From the IMG/VR virus record IMGVR_UViG_3300027844_002282: a DNA stretch of 64,000 nucleotides; one strand, given 5' to 3'. The position numbers and the translations under genes are program-made. The notes below the pieces were generated by a model. The model saw only the letters and a program-made list of their open reading frames with translations, searched no databases and was not told the origin of the DNA. Shown here piece after piece: positions 10,478-38,303 of the stretch. The number at the start of each line of letters is the position of its first letter. The stretch's first letter is position 1. The stretch comes from a virus.

Positions 10478-11464
10478 ATGAACGGTGAACCTCTCGTATT
10501 TTCTGGGCGTTCCAACGAAAAGTTGGCAAAAAGCGTTGCGCGGTATTTATCGATTCCACTTGGCAACAGATTTATCAAGCTTTTTGAAAGCAATAGCAAC
10601 CGGGGGGAAATACATGTCGAATATAACTGTAACCTCCGAAAACGAGACATTGTCATAATCCAAACCATCTTCGATCCAGTGAACGATGACTTAATGGAAT
10701 TGCTCGTCATGATCGATTGTGCTAAGAGGGCAAAGGCAAAAAATATCACCGTAATTATTCCTTATATGGGATACTCAAGACAGGATCGCAAAGATAAGCC
10801 AAGAGTTCCCATCACATCAAAGTTGGTGGCTGGACTTATTGGGTATGCGGGGGCAGACGACGCTCTTCTCATAAACTTACATGCTCCACAAATCGAGGGG
10901 TTCTTCGATATTGGTGTCGATCACATTTCATGCACCAAGATTATGGTGGAAGAACTTCTTAAGACGATTGGCAAATGCCCCACAGAAGACATTGTAATGG
11001 TCGCTCCAGACGAAGGCGCTGGAAAGATTGCCAAAGAGTACAGAAAGTTCGTTCCAGGATCAAGATTGGCTGTAATATCAAAAACCAGACATAGCGGAAC
11101 AAACACGACATCTGACTTCATCATGGGAGAGGTTGACGGTAAGGTCTGTGTTCTTGTAGACGACTTGACCTCGACTGGTGGCACCTTGATCAATGGGGCG
11201 GAGTTGCTTATGAAAAAGGGGGCAACAAAAGTTTATGTTGCTGTCGCTCATGGCTGCTTTATCAACAATGGAAAAATCAAGAGCTATGAAAATATTGAAA
11301 ATAGTTGTATCGAAAAAGTTTTGGTGACAAACTCTATTGACGTAAAGAAAAGTCCAAAAATTAAAATCGTAAACCTTGGAAAATTAATCGGAGAGTGTGT
11401 CCTTAGAGCTAACGACGGAAGGTCGATTTCGGATCTCTTTTCTTCACCGGAGGACGACGAATGA
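10478..11464 (+). CDS. prs: ribose-phosphate pyrophosphokinase (PRPP synthetase)
   Basis: PYMGYSRQDRK, NLHAPQIEGFF, VAPDEG and LVDDLTSTGGT motifs. Confidence 0.95.
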   Translation: MNGEPLVFSGRSNEKLAKSVARYLSIPLGNRFIKLFESNSNRGEIHVEYNCNLRKRDIVIIQTIFDPVNDDLMELLVMIDCAKRAKAKNITVIIPYMGYSRQDRKDKPRVPITSKLVAGLIGYAGADDALLINLHAPQIEGFFDIGVDHISCTKIMVEELLKTIGKCPTEDIVMVAPDEGAGKIAKEYRKFVPGSRLAVISKTRHSGTNTTSDFIMGEVDGKVCVLVDDLTSTGGTLINGAELLMKKGATKVYVAVAHGCFINNGKIKSYENIENSCIEKVLVTNSIDVKKSPKIKIVNLGKLIGECVLRANDGRSISDLFSSPEDDE

Positions 11465-13650: not shown

Positions 13651-14163
13651 ATGAGGAAAAATATAACAATTTGGTTTACCGGAATCCCGTGCAGTGGGAA
13701 AACAACCTTGGCATTGTCTTTCAAGAGAGAGTTAGAGACTCTTGGCCACAAGATTGTCCATTTAGATGGAGATAAATTAAGAGAGGGTTTATGCAAGGGC
13801 CTGGGGTTTTCTAACGAAGGGAGAAAAGAAAATTTGAAAAGGGTAGCTCACGTTGCAGAGTTACTGAACCAGGAAAATATTATTGTATTAGCAAGCTATG
13901 TTTCCCCAACTGAGGAAATGAGAGATGTGGTTAGAGAGATCGTTTCAGATCTAAACCTAATCCATGTCGATTGTTCACCAGAAGAATGCGCCAATAGAGA
14001 CGTTAAAGGGATGTGGAAGAAGGCTAAAGATGGAGAAATCAAAGGATTCACTGGATACGATGCCCCGTTTGAGCAGCCAGTTGATGCCGAGTTAACAATA
14101 AATACAAACGACTTGACATTAACGGAATCTATCGGTATATTATTAAACCATTTTAACTCATGA
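13651..14163 (+). CDS. cysC: adenylyl-sulfate (APS) kinase
   Basis: WFTGIPCSGKTT P-loop, LDGD, RDVKGMW and FTGYDAPFE. Confidence 0.95.
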   Translation: MRKNITIWFTGIPCSGKTTLALSFKRELETLGHKIVHLDGDKLREGLCKGLGFSNEGRKENLKRVAHVAELLNQENIIVLASYVSPTEEMRDVVREIVSDLNLIHVDCSPEECANRDVKGMWKKAKDGEIKGFTGYDAPFEQPVDAELTINTNDLTLTESIGILLNHFNS

Positions 14164-15159: not shown

Positions 15160-15188
15160 TTGACATTGCCCTTTTGAGAGGCTATGTT
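15160..15188 (+). promoter_or_regulatory. sigma70-like promoter upstream of the ncRNA/tmRNA unit
   Basis: TTGACA-17 nt-TATGTT. Confidence 0.6.
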
Positions 15189-15349
15189 GTATCTCAGTTT
15201 GAAAATAGAATAGTTTGTGGTTTCCAGTTTCCGTAAAAACTGGTGGTGGAGGGTATAGCGATTCAAACCGTTTTTGCCCCTGGCTACAAGGAGTCGTTTT
15301 ATTGGGTTAAGCACCTTGTCAATGCTAACCCAGATTTTCCACATTTTGT

Positions 15350-16054
15350 GGGGACGTAACAGGTATTCGACTAGAATGGTAGAATATCAATTGCATGTCG
15401 AGGATGACTGTTGGCCTCGTTAAACATCAGTTAAAAAACATAAAAGCGAACAACGAAGAAATCCTTCAGTTCCCTGGTCTTGATGCAGGTTTTGCAGCAC
15501 CAGTAGAGGCTCCGGCCTTTGCAATCGCTGCCTAATTAGTTGACAGACTAACTCGGCCTTAATTGAGCCGAGCGCTTAACGGATGGACCCTTGATAAATC
15601 CGTAAGCGACAAAAATCGAGGAAAGCGCTTGATACTGACTCACCTGAGTTGAGAGTGAAAGTTTTAGGTGATCGTCATACTGCCAGTTGGTGTTAATACC
15701 TGCGAATGTAATACGGCACAGACTAAAAGATAGCAAAATTAACTATACATGTAGACGTTGATATAAAGTTGTTTTAGGACGCGGGTTCGATCAAATTGGT
15801 CGCCATGAGAAGTGATTCTCATTGGAAACTGAGAGCTTTCACGGTGAAAGCTAAGTTGAGTAATCAATATGCCAACGCCGTATGGTGAATCTGAAAAGAG
15901 GAAGCCATCTAGAGACTTATAGAGTCCTAAGGTATTTATACTATGGATCACTAGGATGGGTAAAACCATAACACGCTCTCCCCTGACTTGTCAGGTGAAG
16001 AAATAGTCCTTGCCAGGTGAAAGTCTGGGTGTACAAGCCCCGCCGTCTCCACCA
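15350..16054 (+). ncRNA. ssrA: tmRNA, intron-containing (exons 15350-15791 and 16038-16054)
   Basis: GGGGACG/CGTCTCC-A-CCA acceptor with G3:U70, GGTATTCGAC, tag ORF 15446-15535 (ANNEEILQFPGLDAGFAAPVEAPAFAIAA*); spliced T-arm GCGGG-TTCGATC-CCCGC. Confidence 0.93.
15792..16037 (+). mobile_element. group I intron in the tmRNA T-loop (246 nt, no ORF)
   Basis: 5' exon ends in U pairing with G in P1 (CGAUC/GGUCG); terminal G; P3 GAGAGC/GCTCTC; core elements AGAGACTTAT (15911) and GAAGAAATAGTCC (15997); P8 CCTGAC..TCAGG. Confidence 0.9.
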
Positions 16055-16059
16055 ATATG

Positions 16060-16097
16060 AAAAAGGCTGAGTGCCTATAAAGCACTCAGTCTTTTTT
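16060..16097 (+). terminator. intrinsic terminator after the tmRNA
   Basis: GGCTGAGTGC-CTATAAA-GCACTCAGTC hairpin followed by T6. Confidence 0.8.
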
Positions 16098-16171
16098 GTT
16101 TTCGAAGGGAATTGTTTTAATAAGAAGGCCCTTCGCCTCCACCTGTAGTATAATATGTTAGAGGTGATAAG

Positions 16172-16747
16172 ATGGCAAAAGAGAAAATAAAATGCGCTAA
16201 CCCAGCATGTGAAAAAATTTTTGAAAAAGAAAGGAAAGAAATAAATAGAAGCGAGAGACTTGGGAGGCTTCAATATTGTTGCTCTTCTTGTTATGGGAAC
16301 CACAGGGGGAAGAACGCCTTGAAGTTCGTGTCGGAAGAAAATATTAAAAGGAATCAAATAAATATTAAAAACTATTGTGGAAACAATAGAGATGGGTTTA
16401 CAAGGTTTAGATATTTTCTAAAAAATTATAGAACAAGGGGCAAAGAAAGGCCTCAGAAAAAAGGGGATATAGACCTGGAATTCTTAAAATCACTATGGGA
16501 GTCTCAGAAAGGCATTTGCCCTATTACTGGATGGAATATGGTTTTGCCAAACTCTATTGCCGGATGGGAAGACAAAGGTATGATGAGAGCGAGTCTTGAT
16601 AGAATCAACTCTAATTTTGGGTACTTTAAAAATAACGTCAGATTCGTTTGTTTTATTGCAAACATTGCCAAAAACAATTTTTCAGATAATGATTTATTAA
16701 AATTTTGCGAGGCCGCGACAAAATTTAACAAAAAGTCAGATTTATAA
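16172..16747 (+). CDS. free-standing HNH-type (His-Me finger) endonuclease, probable homing endonuclease
   Basis: N-terminal CANPAC..YCCSSC Zn module; QKGICPITG ... SLDRINSNFGYFKNNVRFVC...NIAK motif. Confidence 0.75.
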   Translation: MAKEKIKCANPACEKIFEKERKEINRSERLGRLQYCCSSCYGNHRGKNALKFVSEENIKRNQINIKNYCGNNRDGFTRFRYFLKNYRTRGKERPQKKGDIDLEFLKSLWESQKGICPITGWNMVLPNSIAGWEDKGMMRASLDRINSNFGYFKNNVRFVCFIANIAKNNFSDNDLLKFCEAATKFNKKSDL

Positions 16748-20758: not shown

Positions 20759-21385
20759 ATGAATGAATCATTGAATGACGGGCAGAAAATTGCTGACCCA
20801 CCTGAATTTTCTATCATAACGTTTCAACAAACCCCTAAAGTGACTCATTTAGACCCCGCCGACACACCCGATTGGATCAAGGGGAACTACGACCTTGTTG
20901 ACCGCTTTGTAAAGTTCTCGAACTCCATAGAAAACGCCCTTGGATTAGCAGCCAACCAAGTTGCCAGAAAAGGCAAGAGATTGGATTGTCCATTTTTCAT
21001 CTGGAGAAACGAGATGAATGCGACATGCCCTATCAATATTGCGATCAACCCTACCATAAACGAAAAATTTGGGAATCCAGTCAGTGAGATAGAGGGCTGT
21101 CTTAGTTGGCCAGGATTTAGAGTTCACGCCCAAAGACATCTCAGGGTAAATGTGTCATACTGGAATTTGAACGGGGACCACATAGAAAATCAAGACTTGG
21201 GAAGATTCCCATCACAAGTCTGGCAACATGAGATGGACCATCTTCTTGGTGTCGAAGAGATAATCAAGCAAGCAAAAGAAGCATTCGTTAGAGTTGAAAA
21301 GAAAGTCCAAAGAAATGACCCATGCCCCTGCGGCAAGGCGATAGATGGAAAACCGAAAAAGTATAAAAAATGCTGTGGTAGATAA
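20759..21385 (+). CDS. def: peptide deformylase with a C-terminal SEC-C motif
   Basis: GLAANQV, EGCLS and QHEMDH; RNDPCPCG...KYKKCCG. Confidence 0.92.
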   Translation: MNESLNDGQKIADPPEFSIITFQQTPKVTHLDPADTPDWIKGNYDLVDRFVKFSNSIENALGLAANQVARKGKRLDCPFFIWRNEMNATCPINIAINPTINEKFGNPVSEIEGCLSWPGFRVHAQRHLRVNVSYWNLNGDHIENQDLGRFPSQVWQHEMDHLLGVEEIIKQAKEAFVRVEKKVQRNDPCPCGKAIDGKPKKYKKCCGR

Positions 21386-25627: not shown

Positions 25628-26287
25628 ATGGAATACCCACACCCCCCCCACTTGACGTGGTCTCCCAACCGGAAGAGTGACAAGGAAGACAGAATCCTTG
25701 AAACTGAAGATTGTTTCATTGGCAAGGAAGTTGTTTATCTTGAGAAACTCGACGGCGAGAATACCGTTATGTCTCTTGACCGAGTTCACGCAAGATCGGT
25801 AGACAGTCCCAGTACGAAATGGAGAACCCTTGTTTCCACAATGTATGGCATGATCAAGCATTCGATCCCCAGATCCATGTATATTTACGGCGAGAACATG
25901 TATGCTACGCATTCTATCGAGTATGGAGGGTTACCGAGTGCGTTTTTCGTCTTCGCCGTTTTATATGACAAAGAATGGTTTTCCTGGGGAGACACGGTTG
26001 AGGTCGCCAAGCACTTTGGGTTTGACACAGTTCCGACTATTTATAAAAATAGTAAAAAATTGGAGAAGCACCCGATCCCAATCGAATCCGAATTCGGAGG
26101 GGCTTGCGAAGGATACGTTGTCAGAAACAAAGAGGCTTTCTCAAACAAGTTCTTCAGTGATAACATAGCAAAGTGCGTTCGACATGACCATGTCCAAACA
26201 GATGAGATATGGTATAAAAGCTGGACCAAAGCCAACTTCACTGATGATCCCATAGAGAGAGTGTGCAGGATACAAAGTGAAGAATGA
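25628..26287 (+). CDS. RNA ligase family protein
   Basis: YPHPPHL, EKLDGEN (motif I), YGEN, EGYVVR and AKCVR. Confidence 0.85.
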   Translation: MEYPHPPHLTWSPNRKSDKEDRILETEDCFIGKEVVYLEKLDGENTVMSLDRVHARSVDSPSTKWRTLVSTMYGMIKHSIPRSMYIYGENMYATHSIEYGGLPSAFFVFAVLYDKEWFSWGDTVEVAKHFGFDTVPTIYKNSKKLEKHPIPIESEFGGACEGYVVRNKEAFSNKFFSDNIAKCVRHDHVQTDEIWYKSWTKANFTDDPIERVCRIQSEE

Positions 26288-36704: not shown

Positions 36705-38303
36705 TTACACTTGTGAGCTAACAAGTGACTGCACAACTTCCTGGAATCTCGGATCTGCCTCTAAGGCTGATCGTACATTCGCTTTCGTGACTTCAAGATC
36801 TTCATCGATCAAAGACGGATTATCAAGAATAATGTCTTCCTGAACTTCTTTGATGATTCCAATATGACGCCCCGGCTTGATATCAGGAACTCTGGCTCTC
36901 AACATATTCATGATCTCATGCCCATCAATAATGTCCTTCCCCTTTTCAGGGAGCTTCTCCATCATTAACTCAGGCATCCTGTTCTTTATCAACGCACTAT
37001 TGTTCTTCAGCTCACCTTCTGCGGGAATTGAAGAGACTTCATCCGCGACGAGAAGAGCAAGAACGTCATCAAAAGCATCGTCCATATCTCTGTAATAGCG
37101 TCTAAAGGCCTTGTCACCCCATTCTCCGGCGCTGTGTCCTCTCATATGATTATCAACAAGCTTAACAGTTTTATCGACAACGTCATTGGGATACTTCAAA
37201 GCCTTCATTCTCTCTTTAATCATATCTCCAGAATGCTTCTCGTGCTTGTAGAAATGGATTCTATCATCGACCCTCTCTTGAGTGACTGCCTTCCCCCAAT
37301 CGTGAGAGATAGCCGCCCAAGTAAGATGGATTCCAGCATCGGGGTTCTCATTTTCCAAAGCCTCAATAACTTTCAAGGTATGGACGTATGCATCCCCTTC
37401 ACTGTGATGGACAGTATCCTGTTCAACTCCAATCAAAGCATGCATCTCAGGGAGAATGGGCTCAAGGAGATCAAGCTCTTCCATCAACGGAATAGCTTCA
37501 TGCATCTTACCGTACCCAGCAATTTTGTCAATTTCACCACGAAATCTTTCTGCTGAAGTATTGGAGAGATTGTGAATATTATTCCTGATCGCCTCTTTCA
37601 CTTCGTCAGTCATAGTCCATCCATGCTTAACAGCAAATCTGACACCCCTAAGCATTCTAAGAGCATCGTCCTCAAAGATCGGATTGGGATCGCTCGGAGT
37701 CCTGATAATTCCATCTTCAATATCCTTCAAGCCCATTCCGGTCAAATCCACAATGTCGCCATTAGATATTTTTTCTGCAAGAACATCGGGGGAAATAACA
37801 GGTCCAGCCTCCATCTTCTTCAAAAGAGAGTTAACAGTAAAATCCCGTCTCATAACATCATCTTGAAGAGTCCCAAAGGCAACCTCCGGTTTACGACTTC
37901 CGGTCCTGTACTGCTCCTTTCTGGTTTGAACGGCTTCGATCTCAATGCCATCGACATTGTATGTCTGTCCTTTGTATATCAAATCTTTCAATATGACAGC
38001 GTAAACACCGTATCCCTTATCAATAGGGGGCTTCAAGCCAAGAATCGATGTGACGTAATCGCCAAACACCAAGCCACCATCGGGATATTCGATTACAGCA
38101 TCGATATCCTTGGGGATAATTCCAAGCATCTCATCTCTGACAGTTCCGCCAACGATGTAAGACTTTCCTTTGAGAACATGCCCATTGGGAATGTTCTTTG
38201 CCACTTCCGACAAAAGAATCTGCGCCTGAACAAAAGGGGCGTCGGAATTATCCGCATCAGCAGTCAAGTATTTTTCTAAATAAGTTTTTTTGTACCAGTC
38301 CAT
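36705..38303 (-). CDS. cca: CCA-adding tRNA nucleotidyltransferase (class II) with an HD domain and WYK leader
   Basis: VGGTVRD, KDID, RRDFTVN, DDALRMLRGVRF, HHSEGDAYVHT and HDWGK. Confidence 0.9.
   Translation of the reverse strand: MDWYKKTYLEKYLTADADNSDAPFVQAQILLSEVAKNIPNGHVLKGKSYIVGGTVRDEMLGIIPKDIDAVIEYPDGGLVFGDYVTSILGLKPPIDKGYGVYAVILKDLIYKGQTYNVDGIEIEAVQTRKEQYRTGSRKPEVAFGTLQDDVMRRDFTVNSLLKKMEAGPVISPDVLAEKISNGDIVDLTGMGLKDIEDGIIRTPSDPNPIFEDDALRMLRGVRFAVKHGWTMTDEVKEAIRNNIHNLSNTSAERFRGEIDKIAGYGKMHEAIPLMEELDLLEPILPEMHALIGVEQDTVHHSEGDAYVHTLKVIEALENENPDAGIHLTWAAISHDWGKAVTQERVDDRIHFYKHEKHSGDMIKERMKALKYPNDVVDKTVKLVDNHMRGHSAGEWGDKAFRRYYRDMDDAFDDVLALLVADEVSSIPAEGELKNNSALIKNRMPELMMEKLPEKGKDIIDGHEIMNMLRARVPDIKPGRHIGIIKEVQEDIILDNPSLIDEDLEVTKANVRSALEADPRFQEVVQSLVSSQV

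What the first reader, a model, noticed from the sequence alone, without database searches (positions are those of the whole stretch)
15350..16054. Phage tmRNA interrupted in the T-loop by a self-splicing group I intron
Seen: removing 15792-16037 restores GCGGG-TTCGATC-CCCGC-CGTCTCC-A-CCA. The intron has the P1 U-G splice-site pair, P3, P7 core strands, P8, P9 and a terminal G, and no ORF. Knowledge: group I introns in the tmRNA T-loop are known but rare (reported in clostridia); I am not aware of how common they are in phage tmRNAs. Automatic tools would likely miss or truncate this gene. Inference: splicing gates ribosome-rescue activity, and the intron also disrupts a 3'-end sequence commonly targeted by integrases and nucleases.
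Basis: partly seen in the sequence, partly recalled or inferred. Interest (0 to 1): 0.8.

Follow-up and report, generated by a model that had tools for sequence, protein, structure and literature searches.

The report
Intron-split tmRNA gene in giant phage
A phage-like contig carries its own ribosome-rescue RNA (tmRNA) gene, split in the T-loop by a 246-base self-splicing-type intron; this gene form is well catalogued in bacteria, so the find is real but ordinary, apart from sitting on a phage and being missed by standard annotation tools.

Summary
Rfam finds a tmRNA at 15360-15793 (91.9 bits) that stops in the T-loop. ARAGORN calls a tmRNA only after 15792-16037 is deleted. The deletion restores the T-arm, a 7-bp acceptor stem with G3·U70, and ACCA.

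The 246-nt insert is a group I intron. It has U·G at the 5' splice site, a terminal G, and P1-P9 with P7.1/P7.2. The Rfam group I model scores only 22.9 bits (cut-off 50). A profile built from 15 other tmRNA T-loop introns hits it at 79.6 bits (E 5e-24). My structure is 84.7% paired across 16 homologues, with compensatory changes in 39 of 59 pairs.

The kind is known. The 2025 tmRNA database lists 883 unique intron-form tmRNAs in 21 bacterial phyla, most at this same loop subsite ("position 7"). I found no paper describing the form in phages. I did find the same site split on at least six other distinct IMG/VR viral contigs, and this scan had already noted phage cases on other DNA (e1-5732325, e1-5881463, e1-5929595).

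One new point: the free-standing endonuclease downstream (16172-16747) has a homologue encoded inside another phage's tmRNA intron.

Splicing itself is inferred, not shown. Verdict: a new member of a known kind, of modest interest.

The parts
15160..15188 (+). Sigma-70-like promoter candidate (TTGACA-17-TATGTT), about 160 nt upstream of the tmRNA 5' end
   Evidence: Consensus scan, 10 of 12 matches. This is a pattern match only.
15350..15791 (+). tmRNA exon 1. It holds the 5' acceptor strand GGGGACG, pseudoknots, the mRNA-like domain, helix 2, the T-stem 5' strand GCGGG and T-loop nucleotides 1-6 (UUCGAU).
   Evidence: RF00023 at 91.9 bits over 15360-15793, spanning the full model. ARAGORN calls the tmRNA after in-silico splicing.
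15446..15535 (+). Tag reading frame. The resume codon GCG aligns with the Rfam consensus resume codon. The frame encodes 29 aa, ANNEEILQFPGLDAGFAAPVEAPAFAIAA, followed by TAA.
   Evidence: Rfam alignment and translation. ARAGORN picks a later start in the same frame.
15792..16037 (+). Group I intron, 246 nt, ORF-less, IA-like architecture with P7.1 and P7.2. It lies between T-loop nucleotides 6 and 7.
   Evidence: RF00028 at 22.9 bits, E 0.0018. nhmmer profile of 15 other tmRNA introns: 79.6 bits, E 4.7e-24. Covariation on alignment A1. The MFE fold recovers P2-P6 and P7.2.
15788..15802 (+). P1. Exon CGAU (15788-15791) pairs with the internal guide GUCG (15799-15802), and U15791·G15799 sits at the 5' splice site.
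   Evidence: Direct reading. All four pairs are paired in 16 of 16 homologues (helix 1).
15805..15822 (+). P2 hairpin: 7 bp closed by a GUGA tetraloop
   Evidence: All 7 pairs show compensatory changes and 99% of cells are paired (helix 2). Also present in the MFE fold.
15831..15836 (+). P3 5' strand GAGAGC, which pairs with 15975-15980 (GCUCUC)
   Evidence: 4 of 6 pairs carry compensatory changes and 94% of cells are paired (helix 3). Also in the MFE fold.
15841..15908 (+). P4-P6 domain. P4 is 15841-46 with 15876-81. P5 is 15850-51 with 15871-72, and carries a GCUAAG...UAUGC motif that resembles the 11-nt GAAA-tetraloop receptor. P5a is 15856-59 with 15864-67 (GUAA loop). P6 is 15882-85 with 15905-08. 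P6a is 15890-92 with 15897-99 (GAAA loop).
   Evidence: Covariation for helices 4-9 and the MFE fold. The receptor assignment is my inference from general knowledge of group I introns.
15912..15917 (+). P7 5' strand (G-[A bulge]-GACU), which pairs with 16005-16009 (AGUCC). This is the presumed guanosine-binding helix.
   Evidence: Invariant and 100% paired in 16 of 16 sequences (helix 10). The J8/7-P7 stretch matches the RF00028 consensus UgAAGAUAUAGUC.
15924..15968 (+). Peripheral helices between P7 and P3. P7.1 is 15924-27 with 15945-48. The invariant ACUAGGAU follows. P7.2 is minimal, 15957-59 with 15966-68. In longer relatives P7.2 is where homing-endonuclease ORFs sit.
   Evidence: P7.1: 4 of 4 pairs compensatory (helix 11). 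P7.2 counts are weak because of length differences between homologues.
15975..16004 (+). P3 3' strand (15975-80), P8 hairpin (15982-86 with 15991-95) and J8/7 (15996-16004)
   Evidence: helices 3 and 13. The alignment shows the conserved UGAAGnnAUAGUCC.
16013..16037 (+). P9 hairpin with an invariant GAAA loop (16019-16022), a 3' tail, and the terminal guanosine G16037
   Evidence: helix 14. A G at the intron's 3' end in 26 of 26 mapped homologues.
16038..16054 (+). tmRNA exon 2: T-loop nucleotide 7 (C), T-stem 3' strand CCCGC, acceptor 3' strand CGUCUCC, discriminator A and an encoded CCA
   Evidence: Direct reading. ARAGORN on the spliced sequence.
16060..16100 (+). Intrinsic-terminator-like hairpin (CUGAGUGC...GCACUCAG) followed by UCUUUUUUGUUUU
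   Evidence: Direct reading. The scan lists the same hairpin on the minus strand.
16172..16747 (+). Free-standing endonuclease gene (191 aa), 118 nt downstream of the tmRNA. It is a possible mobility partner of the intron.
   Evidence: PHROG endonuclease, HNH and endonuclease VII families: phrog_3322 at E 5.9e-19. It is 32% identical (E 6e-26) to an ORF inside the tmRNA intron of L073. Homologues lie beside tmRNA genes in L103, L105, L106 and L107.

Best explanation
This is an intron-form tmRNA (ssrA) gene on a giant-phage-like contig. The precursor is probably transcribed from a promoter near 15160-15188 and ends at the hairpin at 16060-16100.

The 246-nt insert folds as a group I ribozyme. 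Its internal guide GUCG pairs with the T-loop bases CGAU to form P1. An external guanosine attacks after U15791. The freed 3' OH of exon 1 then attacks after the terminal G16037.

Exon ligation restores the T-loop UUCGAUC and lets the T-stem (GCGGG/CCCGC) and the acceptor stem (GGGGACG/CGUCUCC, with G3·U70, A, CCA) form. The 459-nt product can then be charged with alanine and, with SmpB, add the 29-residue tag ANNEEILQFPGLDAGFAAPVEAPAFAIAA to stalled nascent chains.

The intron belongs to the same family as the 'position 7' T-loop introns of bacterial tmRNA genes, especially those of Gammaproteobacteria. It has no endonuclease ORF of its own.

What is shown here: the gene anatomy, homology to the intron family, and a covariation-supported ribozyme fold. 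What is inferred: transcription, self-splicing, aminoacylation and tagging.
For: tmRNA identity:
- RF00023 at 91.9 bits, truncated exactly in the T-loop.
- ARAGORN finds the gene only after removal of 15792-16037.
- The tag frame is open from the consensus resume position.

Intron identity:
- RF00028 hit with the J8/7-P7 consensus, E 0.0018. It lies above the 20-bit working threshold used by the tFind pipeline.
- A profile built without the window hits 15796-16029 at E 4.7e-24, and there is no other hit in the 64 kb.
- 26 of 26 mapped homologues have U at -1 and G at the intron end, at the same loop subsite.
- 84.7% of cells are paired, against 34-43% for slid controls. 39 of 59 pairs carry compensatory changes. 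None of 500 shuffles reached the observed values.
- The MFE fold independently gives P2-P6 and P7.2, z-score -2.3.

The family is known:
- PMC11915505.

Phage context:
- No cellular genome is held for this window.
- The window has a tRNA island and PHROG matches to tRNA nucleotidyltransferase, RNA ligase, peptide deformylase, helicase and endonuclease.
- The same split site occurs on IMG/VR contigs L045, L055/L071, L064, L073, L077/L080 and L078.
Against: No RNA data and no splicing assay are available. The curated Rfam group I model scores below its gathering cut-off (22.9 against 50 bits). P1 is only 4 bp, P10 is at most 1 bp, and P7.2 is reduced to 3 bp. The first two of these are also true of the bacterial relatives.

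The homologues used for covariation were found with a motif taken from the window, so 21 aligned bases match by construction. P1 and P7 never vary, so comparison neither supports nor contradicts them.

No intron-less allele of this particular tmRNA was found. No virion gene was identified within the window, so 'phage' rests on context and on earlier unchecked notes.
Confidence: 0.88

Rival explanations
1. The intron and the neighbouring free-standing endonuclease (16172-16747) work as a collaborative homing pair. The endonuclease cuts the conserved T-arm DNA of intron-less tmRNA genes in co-infecting phages. The intron splits that site and so protects its carrier, and it is copied into the cut allele together with the endonuclease gene. 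On this reading, tmRNA function is merely preserved by splicing; the intron's reason for being there is immunity and spread. This adds to the best explanation rather than replacing it.
For: The endonuclease gene lies 118 nt from the tmRNA 3' end. A homologue (32% identity, E 6e-26) is encoded inside the tmRNA T-loop intron of viral contig L073. Homologues sit directly beside tmRNA genes in L103, L105, L106 and L107. Two of those tmRNAs have aberrant T-loops (L103 GGGCAGT, L106 TCTCGGA). Earlier notes e1-5791320 and e1-5732325 report the same association on more loci, but those notes are unchecked.
Against: The cleavage site is unknown. L105 and L107 carry the endonuclease next to tmRNAs with ordinary, uninterrupted T-loops, so the intron is not needed for coexistence. 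In 7 of the 11 homologue loci no adjacent tmRNA was detected at Rfam gathering level. The closest intron relatives carry LAGLIDADG enzymes, not this family.
Confidence: 0.3
2. The intron is a decayed, splicing-dead insertion, and the gene is a tmRNA pseudogene.
For: Low RF00028 score. P7.2 is minimal and P1 is short. The intron has no homing-endonuclease ORF, which fits the late stage of an intron life cycle.
Against: Every core helix and every invariant joining segment of the family is intact in the window: 79 invariant columns are shared, including J8/7, P7, ACUAGGAU and the L9 GAAA loop. Both exons are intact, with perfect acceptor and T-stems, an open tag frame and an encoded CCA. Other ORF-less members of similar size (206-301 nt) are the norm; only 4% carry an endonuclease gene.
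Confidence: 0.08
3. The insert is not an intron but a scar of site-specific integration into the tmRNA 3' end, that is, a duplicated att fragment flanking a remnant of a mobile element.
For: tmRNA T-loops are frequent integrase targets (PMC11915505 introduction).
Against: There is no duplicated 3' fragment: exon 2 is the only copy of the T-stem 3' strand and the acceptor strand. The insert is homologous along its full length to group I introns. There is no integrase nearby.
Confidence: 0.01

Closest known systems
Intron-form tmRNA genes of bacteria: a group I intron in the TψC loop. First described by Williams 2002 (NAR 30:179, cited in PMC11915505); 883 unique sequences in the 2025 tmRNA database.
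   Same: The same host gene and the same loop subsite (between loop nucleotides 6 and 7, 'position 7'). U at -1 and a terminal G. P7.1/P7.2 architecture. Usually ORF-less and about 290 nt. Missed by ARAGORN and by the standard tmRNA model.
   Different: It is carried on a phage-like contig rather than a bacterial chromosome. The database table lists only bacterial and archaeal phyla, and the paper's text does not mention phage intron forms. At 246 nt the intron is at the short end. The exons are unusually long (459 nt mature, 29-aa tag).
tmRNA T-loop introns of Gammaproteobacteria MAGs (loci L082-L101: Thiotrichaceae, Methylococcaceae, Steroidobacteraceae, Ca. Marithrix, Ca. Competibacter and others)
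   Same: Sequence homology across the whole ribozyme at 52-65% identity. They share invariant blocks: GGUCGC guide, CGGUGAA, GCCAAYRCCG, UAGAGACUUAUAG, ACUAGGAU, UGAAGGnAUAGUCC and GAAA in L9.
   Different: The window's tmRNA exons are no closer to these bacteria (53-58%) than to any other tmRNA. So co-inheritance of exon and intron from such a host is not indicated. P6, P7.2 and P8 are shorter in the window.
Phage group I introns with free-standing homing endonucleases, for example the cyanophage S-PM2 psbA intron with the adjacent F-CphI, and T4-type seg/mob genes (from my own knowledge of the literature)
   Same: An ORF-less group I intron in a conserved phage gene, with an endonuclease gene next door. 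The core of the L073 tmRNA intron is 86% identical over 77 nt to the S-PM2 psbA intron.
   Different: The target here is a structured RNA gene, not a protein gene. No cleavage data exist. The endonuclease family is different and has no Pfam model.
[quoted passage not shown]
   Same: A self-splicing intron inside a tRNA-shaped RNA, with its guide sequence pairing to a conserved loop. The Rfam model detects it only weakly.
   Different: The insertion is in the T-loop, not the anticodon loop, and the host is tmRNA.

Membership tests
tmRNA (Rfam RF00023) | Score at or above the curated gathering threshold over the full model | tested here: met
   91.9 bits against 47, model positions 1-374. The last 15 model positions (T-stem 3' strand and acceptor 3' strand) are skipped in the native sequence.
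tmRNA (Rfam RF00023) | tRNA-like domain: 7-bp acceptor stem with G3·U70, T-arm, discriminator A and CCA | tested here: met
   Met only after removal of 15792-16037: GGGGACG/CGUCUCC, GCGGG-UUCGAUC-CCCGC, ACCA.
tmRNA (Rfam RF00023) | mRNA-like domain with a resume codon and an in-frame stop, and a tag ending in hydrophobic-Ala-Ala | tested here: met
   GCG at 15446 aligns with the consensus resume codon. The tag is 29 aa, ends ...FAIAA, and is followed by TAA.
tmRNA (Rfam RF00023) | Alanylation, SmpB binding and trans-translation activity | not testable with these tools
   Needs biochemistry. No whole genome is held in which to look for a phage SmpB.
Group I intron (Rfam RF00028) | Score at or above the curated gathering threshold | tested here: not met
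   22.9 bits against 50, with E 0.0018 in an 851-nt search. The Rfam seed holds no bacterial introns, and 20 bits is used as the working cut-off for tRNA and tmRNA contexts.
Group I intron (Rfam RF00028) | U·G wobble closing P1 at the 5' splice site, and a terminal guanosine at the 3' splice site | tested here: met
   U15791·G15799 and G16037. The same holds in 26 of 26 homologues.
Group I intron (Rfam RF00028) | Conserved core: P3-P7 pseudoknot, P4-P6 domain, P8, J8/7 and P9 | tested here: met
   All are present. Compensatory changes occur in P2, P3, P4, P5, P6, P7.1, P8 and P9. P7 and J8/7 are invariant.
Group I intron (Rfam RF00028) | Guanosine-dependent self-splicing | not testable with these tools
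   Needs an in vitro splicing assay or RNA sequencing.
Intron-form tmRNA genes (tmRNA_intron model of PMC11915505) | Intron lies within the TψC loop at one of the four described subsites and splicing restores the loop | tested here: met
   It lies between loop nucleotides 6 and 7, which is position 7, the main subsite.
Intron-form tmRNA genes (tmRNA_intron model of PMC11915505) | Sequence homology of the intron to other tmRNA T-loop introns | tested here: met
   nhmmer profile of 15 other members: 79.6 bits, E 4.7e-24, covering 15796-16029.
Intron-form tmRNA genes (tmRNA_intron model of PMC11915505) | At least 150 bits with the published tmRNA_intron covariance model | not testable with these tools
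   The model is a supplementary file, is not in Rfam, and is not on hand.
Collaborative homing (ORF-less intron plus free-standing endonuclease) | Free-standing endonuclease gene adjacent to the intron-bearing gene | tested here: met
   16172-16747, with PHROG endonuclease/HNH matches.
Collaborative homing (ORF-less intron plus free-standing endonuclease) | The endonuclease cleaves the intron-less allele at or near the intron insertion site and spares the intron-bearing allele | not testable with these tools
   No cleavage data. The only indirect support is a homologue inside a tmRNA intron and homologues beside tmRNA genes.

The most novel reading that the evidence does not exclude
The ORF-less T-loop intron and the adjacent endonuclease form a two-part selfish system aimed at the tmRNA genes of rival giant phages. 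The enzyme cuts the conserved T-arm DNA of intron-less alleles. The intron makes its carrier immune and is copied across during repair. The same enzyme family has also moved into a tmRNA intron (L073). Together these would show a free-standing nuclease and an intron in the course of merging.
Probability: 0.3. Interest if true: 0.55.

Novelty: new member of a known kind. Interest (0 to 1): 0.3.

Why it matters
For annotation: phage tmRNA genes of this form are invisible to ARAGORN and are truncated by the Rfam tmRNA model. Counts of translation-related genes in giant phages therefore undercount them.

For biology: it extends a well-catalogued bacterial gene form to phages. It shows that the same intron family circulates between Gammaproteobacteria and large phages. 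Through the neighbouring endonuclease and its intron-encoded homologue, it also offers a tractable system for asking how homing endonucleases and ORF-less introns team up on an RNA gene.

It does not change what is known about tmRNA or about group I catalysis.

Tried and rejected
(1) blastn of 15300-16100 against 50,697 GenBank phage records gave no match. L055's tmRNA plus intron also gave none.

(2) The exact 16-mer GGTGAAGAAATAGTCC in IMG/VR gave 44 loci. None resembles the window beyond the 16-mer, so they are about what chance would give.

(3) The search for related loci with the window's endonuclease in IMG/VR found no relative.

I therefore could not inspect the 13 contigs that encode the identical endonuclease for intron-less alleles.

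(5) The single metagenome scan, with a 21-mer from helix 2 of this tmRNA, returned 4 loci that are chance matches only. No close relative or intron-less allele of this tmRNA was found.

(6) No whole genome is held, so I could not search for SmpB, virion genes or further introns outside the window.

(7) The 76-codon antisense frame 15739-15969 was considered as a remnant homing-endonuclease gene. I rejected this: it has no Pfam hit and no LAGLIDADG motif, and it simply reads through the ribozyme core.

(8) A perfect hairpin AGCUUUCA-CGG-UGAAAGCU (15834-15852) was considered as P4/P5. I rejected it in favour of the comparative P3/P4/P5 pairing, which covaries.

(9) A sample of 80 IMG/VR loci holding the T-arm 15-mer contained 1 interrupted and about 68 uninterrupted T-arms.

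(10) Williams 2002 (PMC99078) is not held. The IA3 subgroup label is from memory, and I claim only 'IA-like'.

Full report
OBSERVATION

GGGGACG at 15350 opens a tmRNA. Rfam RF00023 aligns 15360-15793 at 91.9 bits (E 1.8e-34) across the whole model. The alignment stops at GGACGCGGGUUCGAU, and the T-stem 3' strand and acceptor 3' strand are missing.

ARAGORN reports six tRNAs in the window and no tmRNA. When 15792-16037 is removed in silico, ARAGORN calls a 459-nt tmRNA with both tRNA-like halves. On the native sequence it finds nothing.

Exon 2 (16038-16054, CCCCGCCGUCUCCACCA) supplies several parts. These are T-loop base 7, a 5-bp T-stem partner, a 7-bp acceptor partner that includes the G3·U70 alanine identity pair, the discriminator A and an encoded CCA.

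The tag frame starts at the codon that aligns with the Rfam consensus resume codon. It encodes ANNEEILQFPGLDAGFAAPVEAPAFAIAA followed by a stop. A hairpin followed by a U-run lies at 16060-16100.

IS THE INSERT A GROUP I INTRON?

The curated Rfam model gives only 22.9 bits against a cut-off of 50, with E 0.0018 in an 851-nt search. It does align the J8/7-P7 signature UGAAGAAAUAGUCC and a P9 hairpin. The Rfam seed contains no bacterial introns, and the group that curates tmRNA genes uses 20 bits as its working threshold. I therefore looked for relatives directly.

Pattern scans found the same T-loop split on IMG/VR viral contigs:
- L045: 236-nt intron.
- L055 and L071: identical 672-nt introns on two contigs.
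- L064: cut by the contig end.
- L073: 777-nt intron.
- L077 and L080: identical 663-nt introns on two contigs.
- L078: 422-nt intron.

A motif scan of one genome per prokaryote species gave 21 loci. Eighteen of them are tmRNA genes split at the same place, nearly all in Gammaproteobacteria MAGs. In all 26 mapped cases the 5' exon ends in U, the insert ends in G, and exon 2 restores the T-arm.

STRUCTURE

Sixteen ORF-less members, including the window, align with 79 invariant columns. I derived a model from the window and mapped it onto this alignment. The model comprises P1, P2, P3, P4, P5/P5a, P6/P6a, P7 (a pseudoknot with P3), P7.1, P7.2, P8 and P9. The counts on the alignment are:
- 84.7% of cells are paired, against 34-43% when the 3' partners are slid by 1-3 columns.
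- 39 of 59 pairs carry changes on both sides.
- None of 500 shuffles reached the observed values.

P2, P3, P6 and P7.1 covary most clearly. P1 and P7 are invariant, so they are uninformative. The counts for P5a, P6a, P7.2, P8 and P9 are lowered by length differences between homologues.

An unconstrained MFE fold of the intron alone reproduces P2, P3, P4, P5, P5a, P6, P6a and P7.2 (z-score -2.3).

A profile HMM built from the other 15 sequences hits the window once, at 15796-16029, with 79.6 bits and E 4.7e-24. One caveat applies: the relatives were recruited with a 21-base motif taken from the window.

The extra helices between P7 and P3 give the intron an IA-like architecture. The L9 GAAA loop and the GCUAAG...UAUGC motif in P5 resemble the classical tetraloop-receptor pair. 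That last point is my inference from general knowledge.

WHAT IS KNOWN

Intron-form tmRNA is one of three recognised tmRNA gene forms. The 2025 tmRNA database reports 883 unique intron-form sequences in 21 phyla. All have the intron in the TψC loop, and most have it at 'position 7', which is the site used here. Mean intron length is 293 nt, and only 4% carry homing-endonuclease genes. The phylum table lists 1,658 position-7 instances, 159 of them in Pseudomonadota.

That survey included RefSeq viruses, but it reports no phage intron forms in its text or its table. Four full-text searches found no paper on a phage case. This scan had already noted phage intron-form tmRNAs on other DNA (e1-5732325, e1-5881463, e1-5929595). 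Those notes are unchecked.

CONTEXT

No cellular genome is held for the window. The window carries the following:
- a tRNA island;
- tRNA nucleotidyltransferase, RNA ligase, peptide deformylase and a helicase, all by PHROG matches;
- PRPP synthetase, APS kinase and a PfkB kinase.
This fits a giant phage, but I saw no virion gene in these 64 kb.

The window's tmRNA exons are 52-60% identical to every other tmRNA examined, while its intron is 52-65% identical to other family members. There is no sign that exon and intron were taken together from a particular host.

MOBILITY

The window's intron has no endonuclease ORF. Longer relatives carry 135-157-aa single-motif LAGLIDADG genes in P7.2, on the strand antisense to the intron.

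The gene 118 nt downstream of the tmRNA (16172-16747) matches PHROG endonuclease/HNH families. It is 32% identical (E 6e-26) to a 184-aa ORF that lies, antisense, inside the tmRNA intron of L073. Homologues lie directly beside tmRNA genes in L103, L105, L106 and L107. In L103 and L106 those tmRNAs have aberrant T-loops, and in L105 and L107 they have ordinary ones.

This makes a T-arm-directed homing system plausible. It also shows that the intron is not required for the enzyme to coexist with a tmRNA gene. I put that reading at about 0.3.

VERDICT

Splicing, charging and tagging are inferred. The feature is a new, phage-borne member of a well-described kind.

These are regulatory gating by splicing and shielding of an integrase or nuclease target. 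The nuclease-target idea has indirect support.

Noticed in passing
L079:3100-3720 (minus strand), IMG/VR contig 3300013121_000008: An intron with the same family core (UAGAGACUUAUAG...ACUAGGAU) sits after T-loop nucleotide 1: exon ...ACGGGU | intron ...AAAUUG | UCGAGUCCCGUUAUCUCCACCA. This is 'position 2' of PMC11915505, reported there only for Anaerolineae and one Myxococcota. It suggests one intron family was retargeted within the loop. The 5' part of the host RNA lies outside the stored locus, so its identity as a tmRNA is unverified.
   Followed up: partly
L055:1036-1470, L077, L080, L087, L088, L095, L096 (within their tmRNA introns): The homing-endonuclease genes of the long family members are single-motif LAGLIDADG ORFs on the strand antisense to the intron, inserted in P7.2. 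Their start codon is the complement of the conserved CAU just before the P3 3' strand. Their Shine-Dalgarno sequence (GGAG) is the complement of the P3 3' strand itself.
   Followed up: partly
L073:609-1385 (intron), ORF L073:776-1330 (minus strand): This phage tmRNA intron has a core 86% identical over 77 nt to the cyanophage S-PM2 psbA intron. In P8 it carries, antisense, a homologue of the window's free-standing endonuclease.
   Followed up: yes
L103:2340-3160: An endonuclease homologue is flanked upstream by a tmRNA 3' end (with an odd T-loop, GGGCAGU, and CCA) and downstream by a tmRNA 5' end. Rfam's permuted-tmRNA model spans the whole unit at 61.8 bits.
   Followed up: no
L106:3405-3458: A standard-form tmRNA immediately downstream of an endonuclease homologue has a non-canonical T-loop (UCUCGGA instead of UUCRANY). 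This may be a target-site change.
   Followed up: no
L045:4217-4796: An intron-form tmRNA on a 164-kb viral contig is short (327 nt mature) and lacks an encoded CCA (...CAUCUCCAUUA). The Rfam tmRNA model did not report it at E up to 0.01.
   Followed up: partly
L078:9784-9860: A Twister-P5 ribozyme match (38.0 bits, cut-off 37.6) lies about 500 nt upstream of an intron-form phage tmRNA.
   Followed up: no
window 15739-15969 (minus strand): A 76-codon ATG frame lies antisense to the ribozyme core and starts at the same CAU used by the endonuclease genes of relatives. It has no Pfam hit and no LAGLIDADG motif. It is most likely a by-product of the conserved RNA sequence.
   Followed up: yes
window 20759-21385, 25628-26287, 36705-38303, 10478-11464, 13651-14163: A module of translation and RNA-repair genes and metabolic genes surrounds the tRNA/tmRNA island: peptide deformylase, RNA ligase, tRNA nucleotidyltransferase, PRPP synthetase and APS kinase.
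   Followed up: partly
window 15350-16054: The mature tmRNA (459 nt) and its 29-residue tag are long compared with the 351-428 nt of the other intron-form tmRNAs examined.
   Followed up: partly
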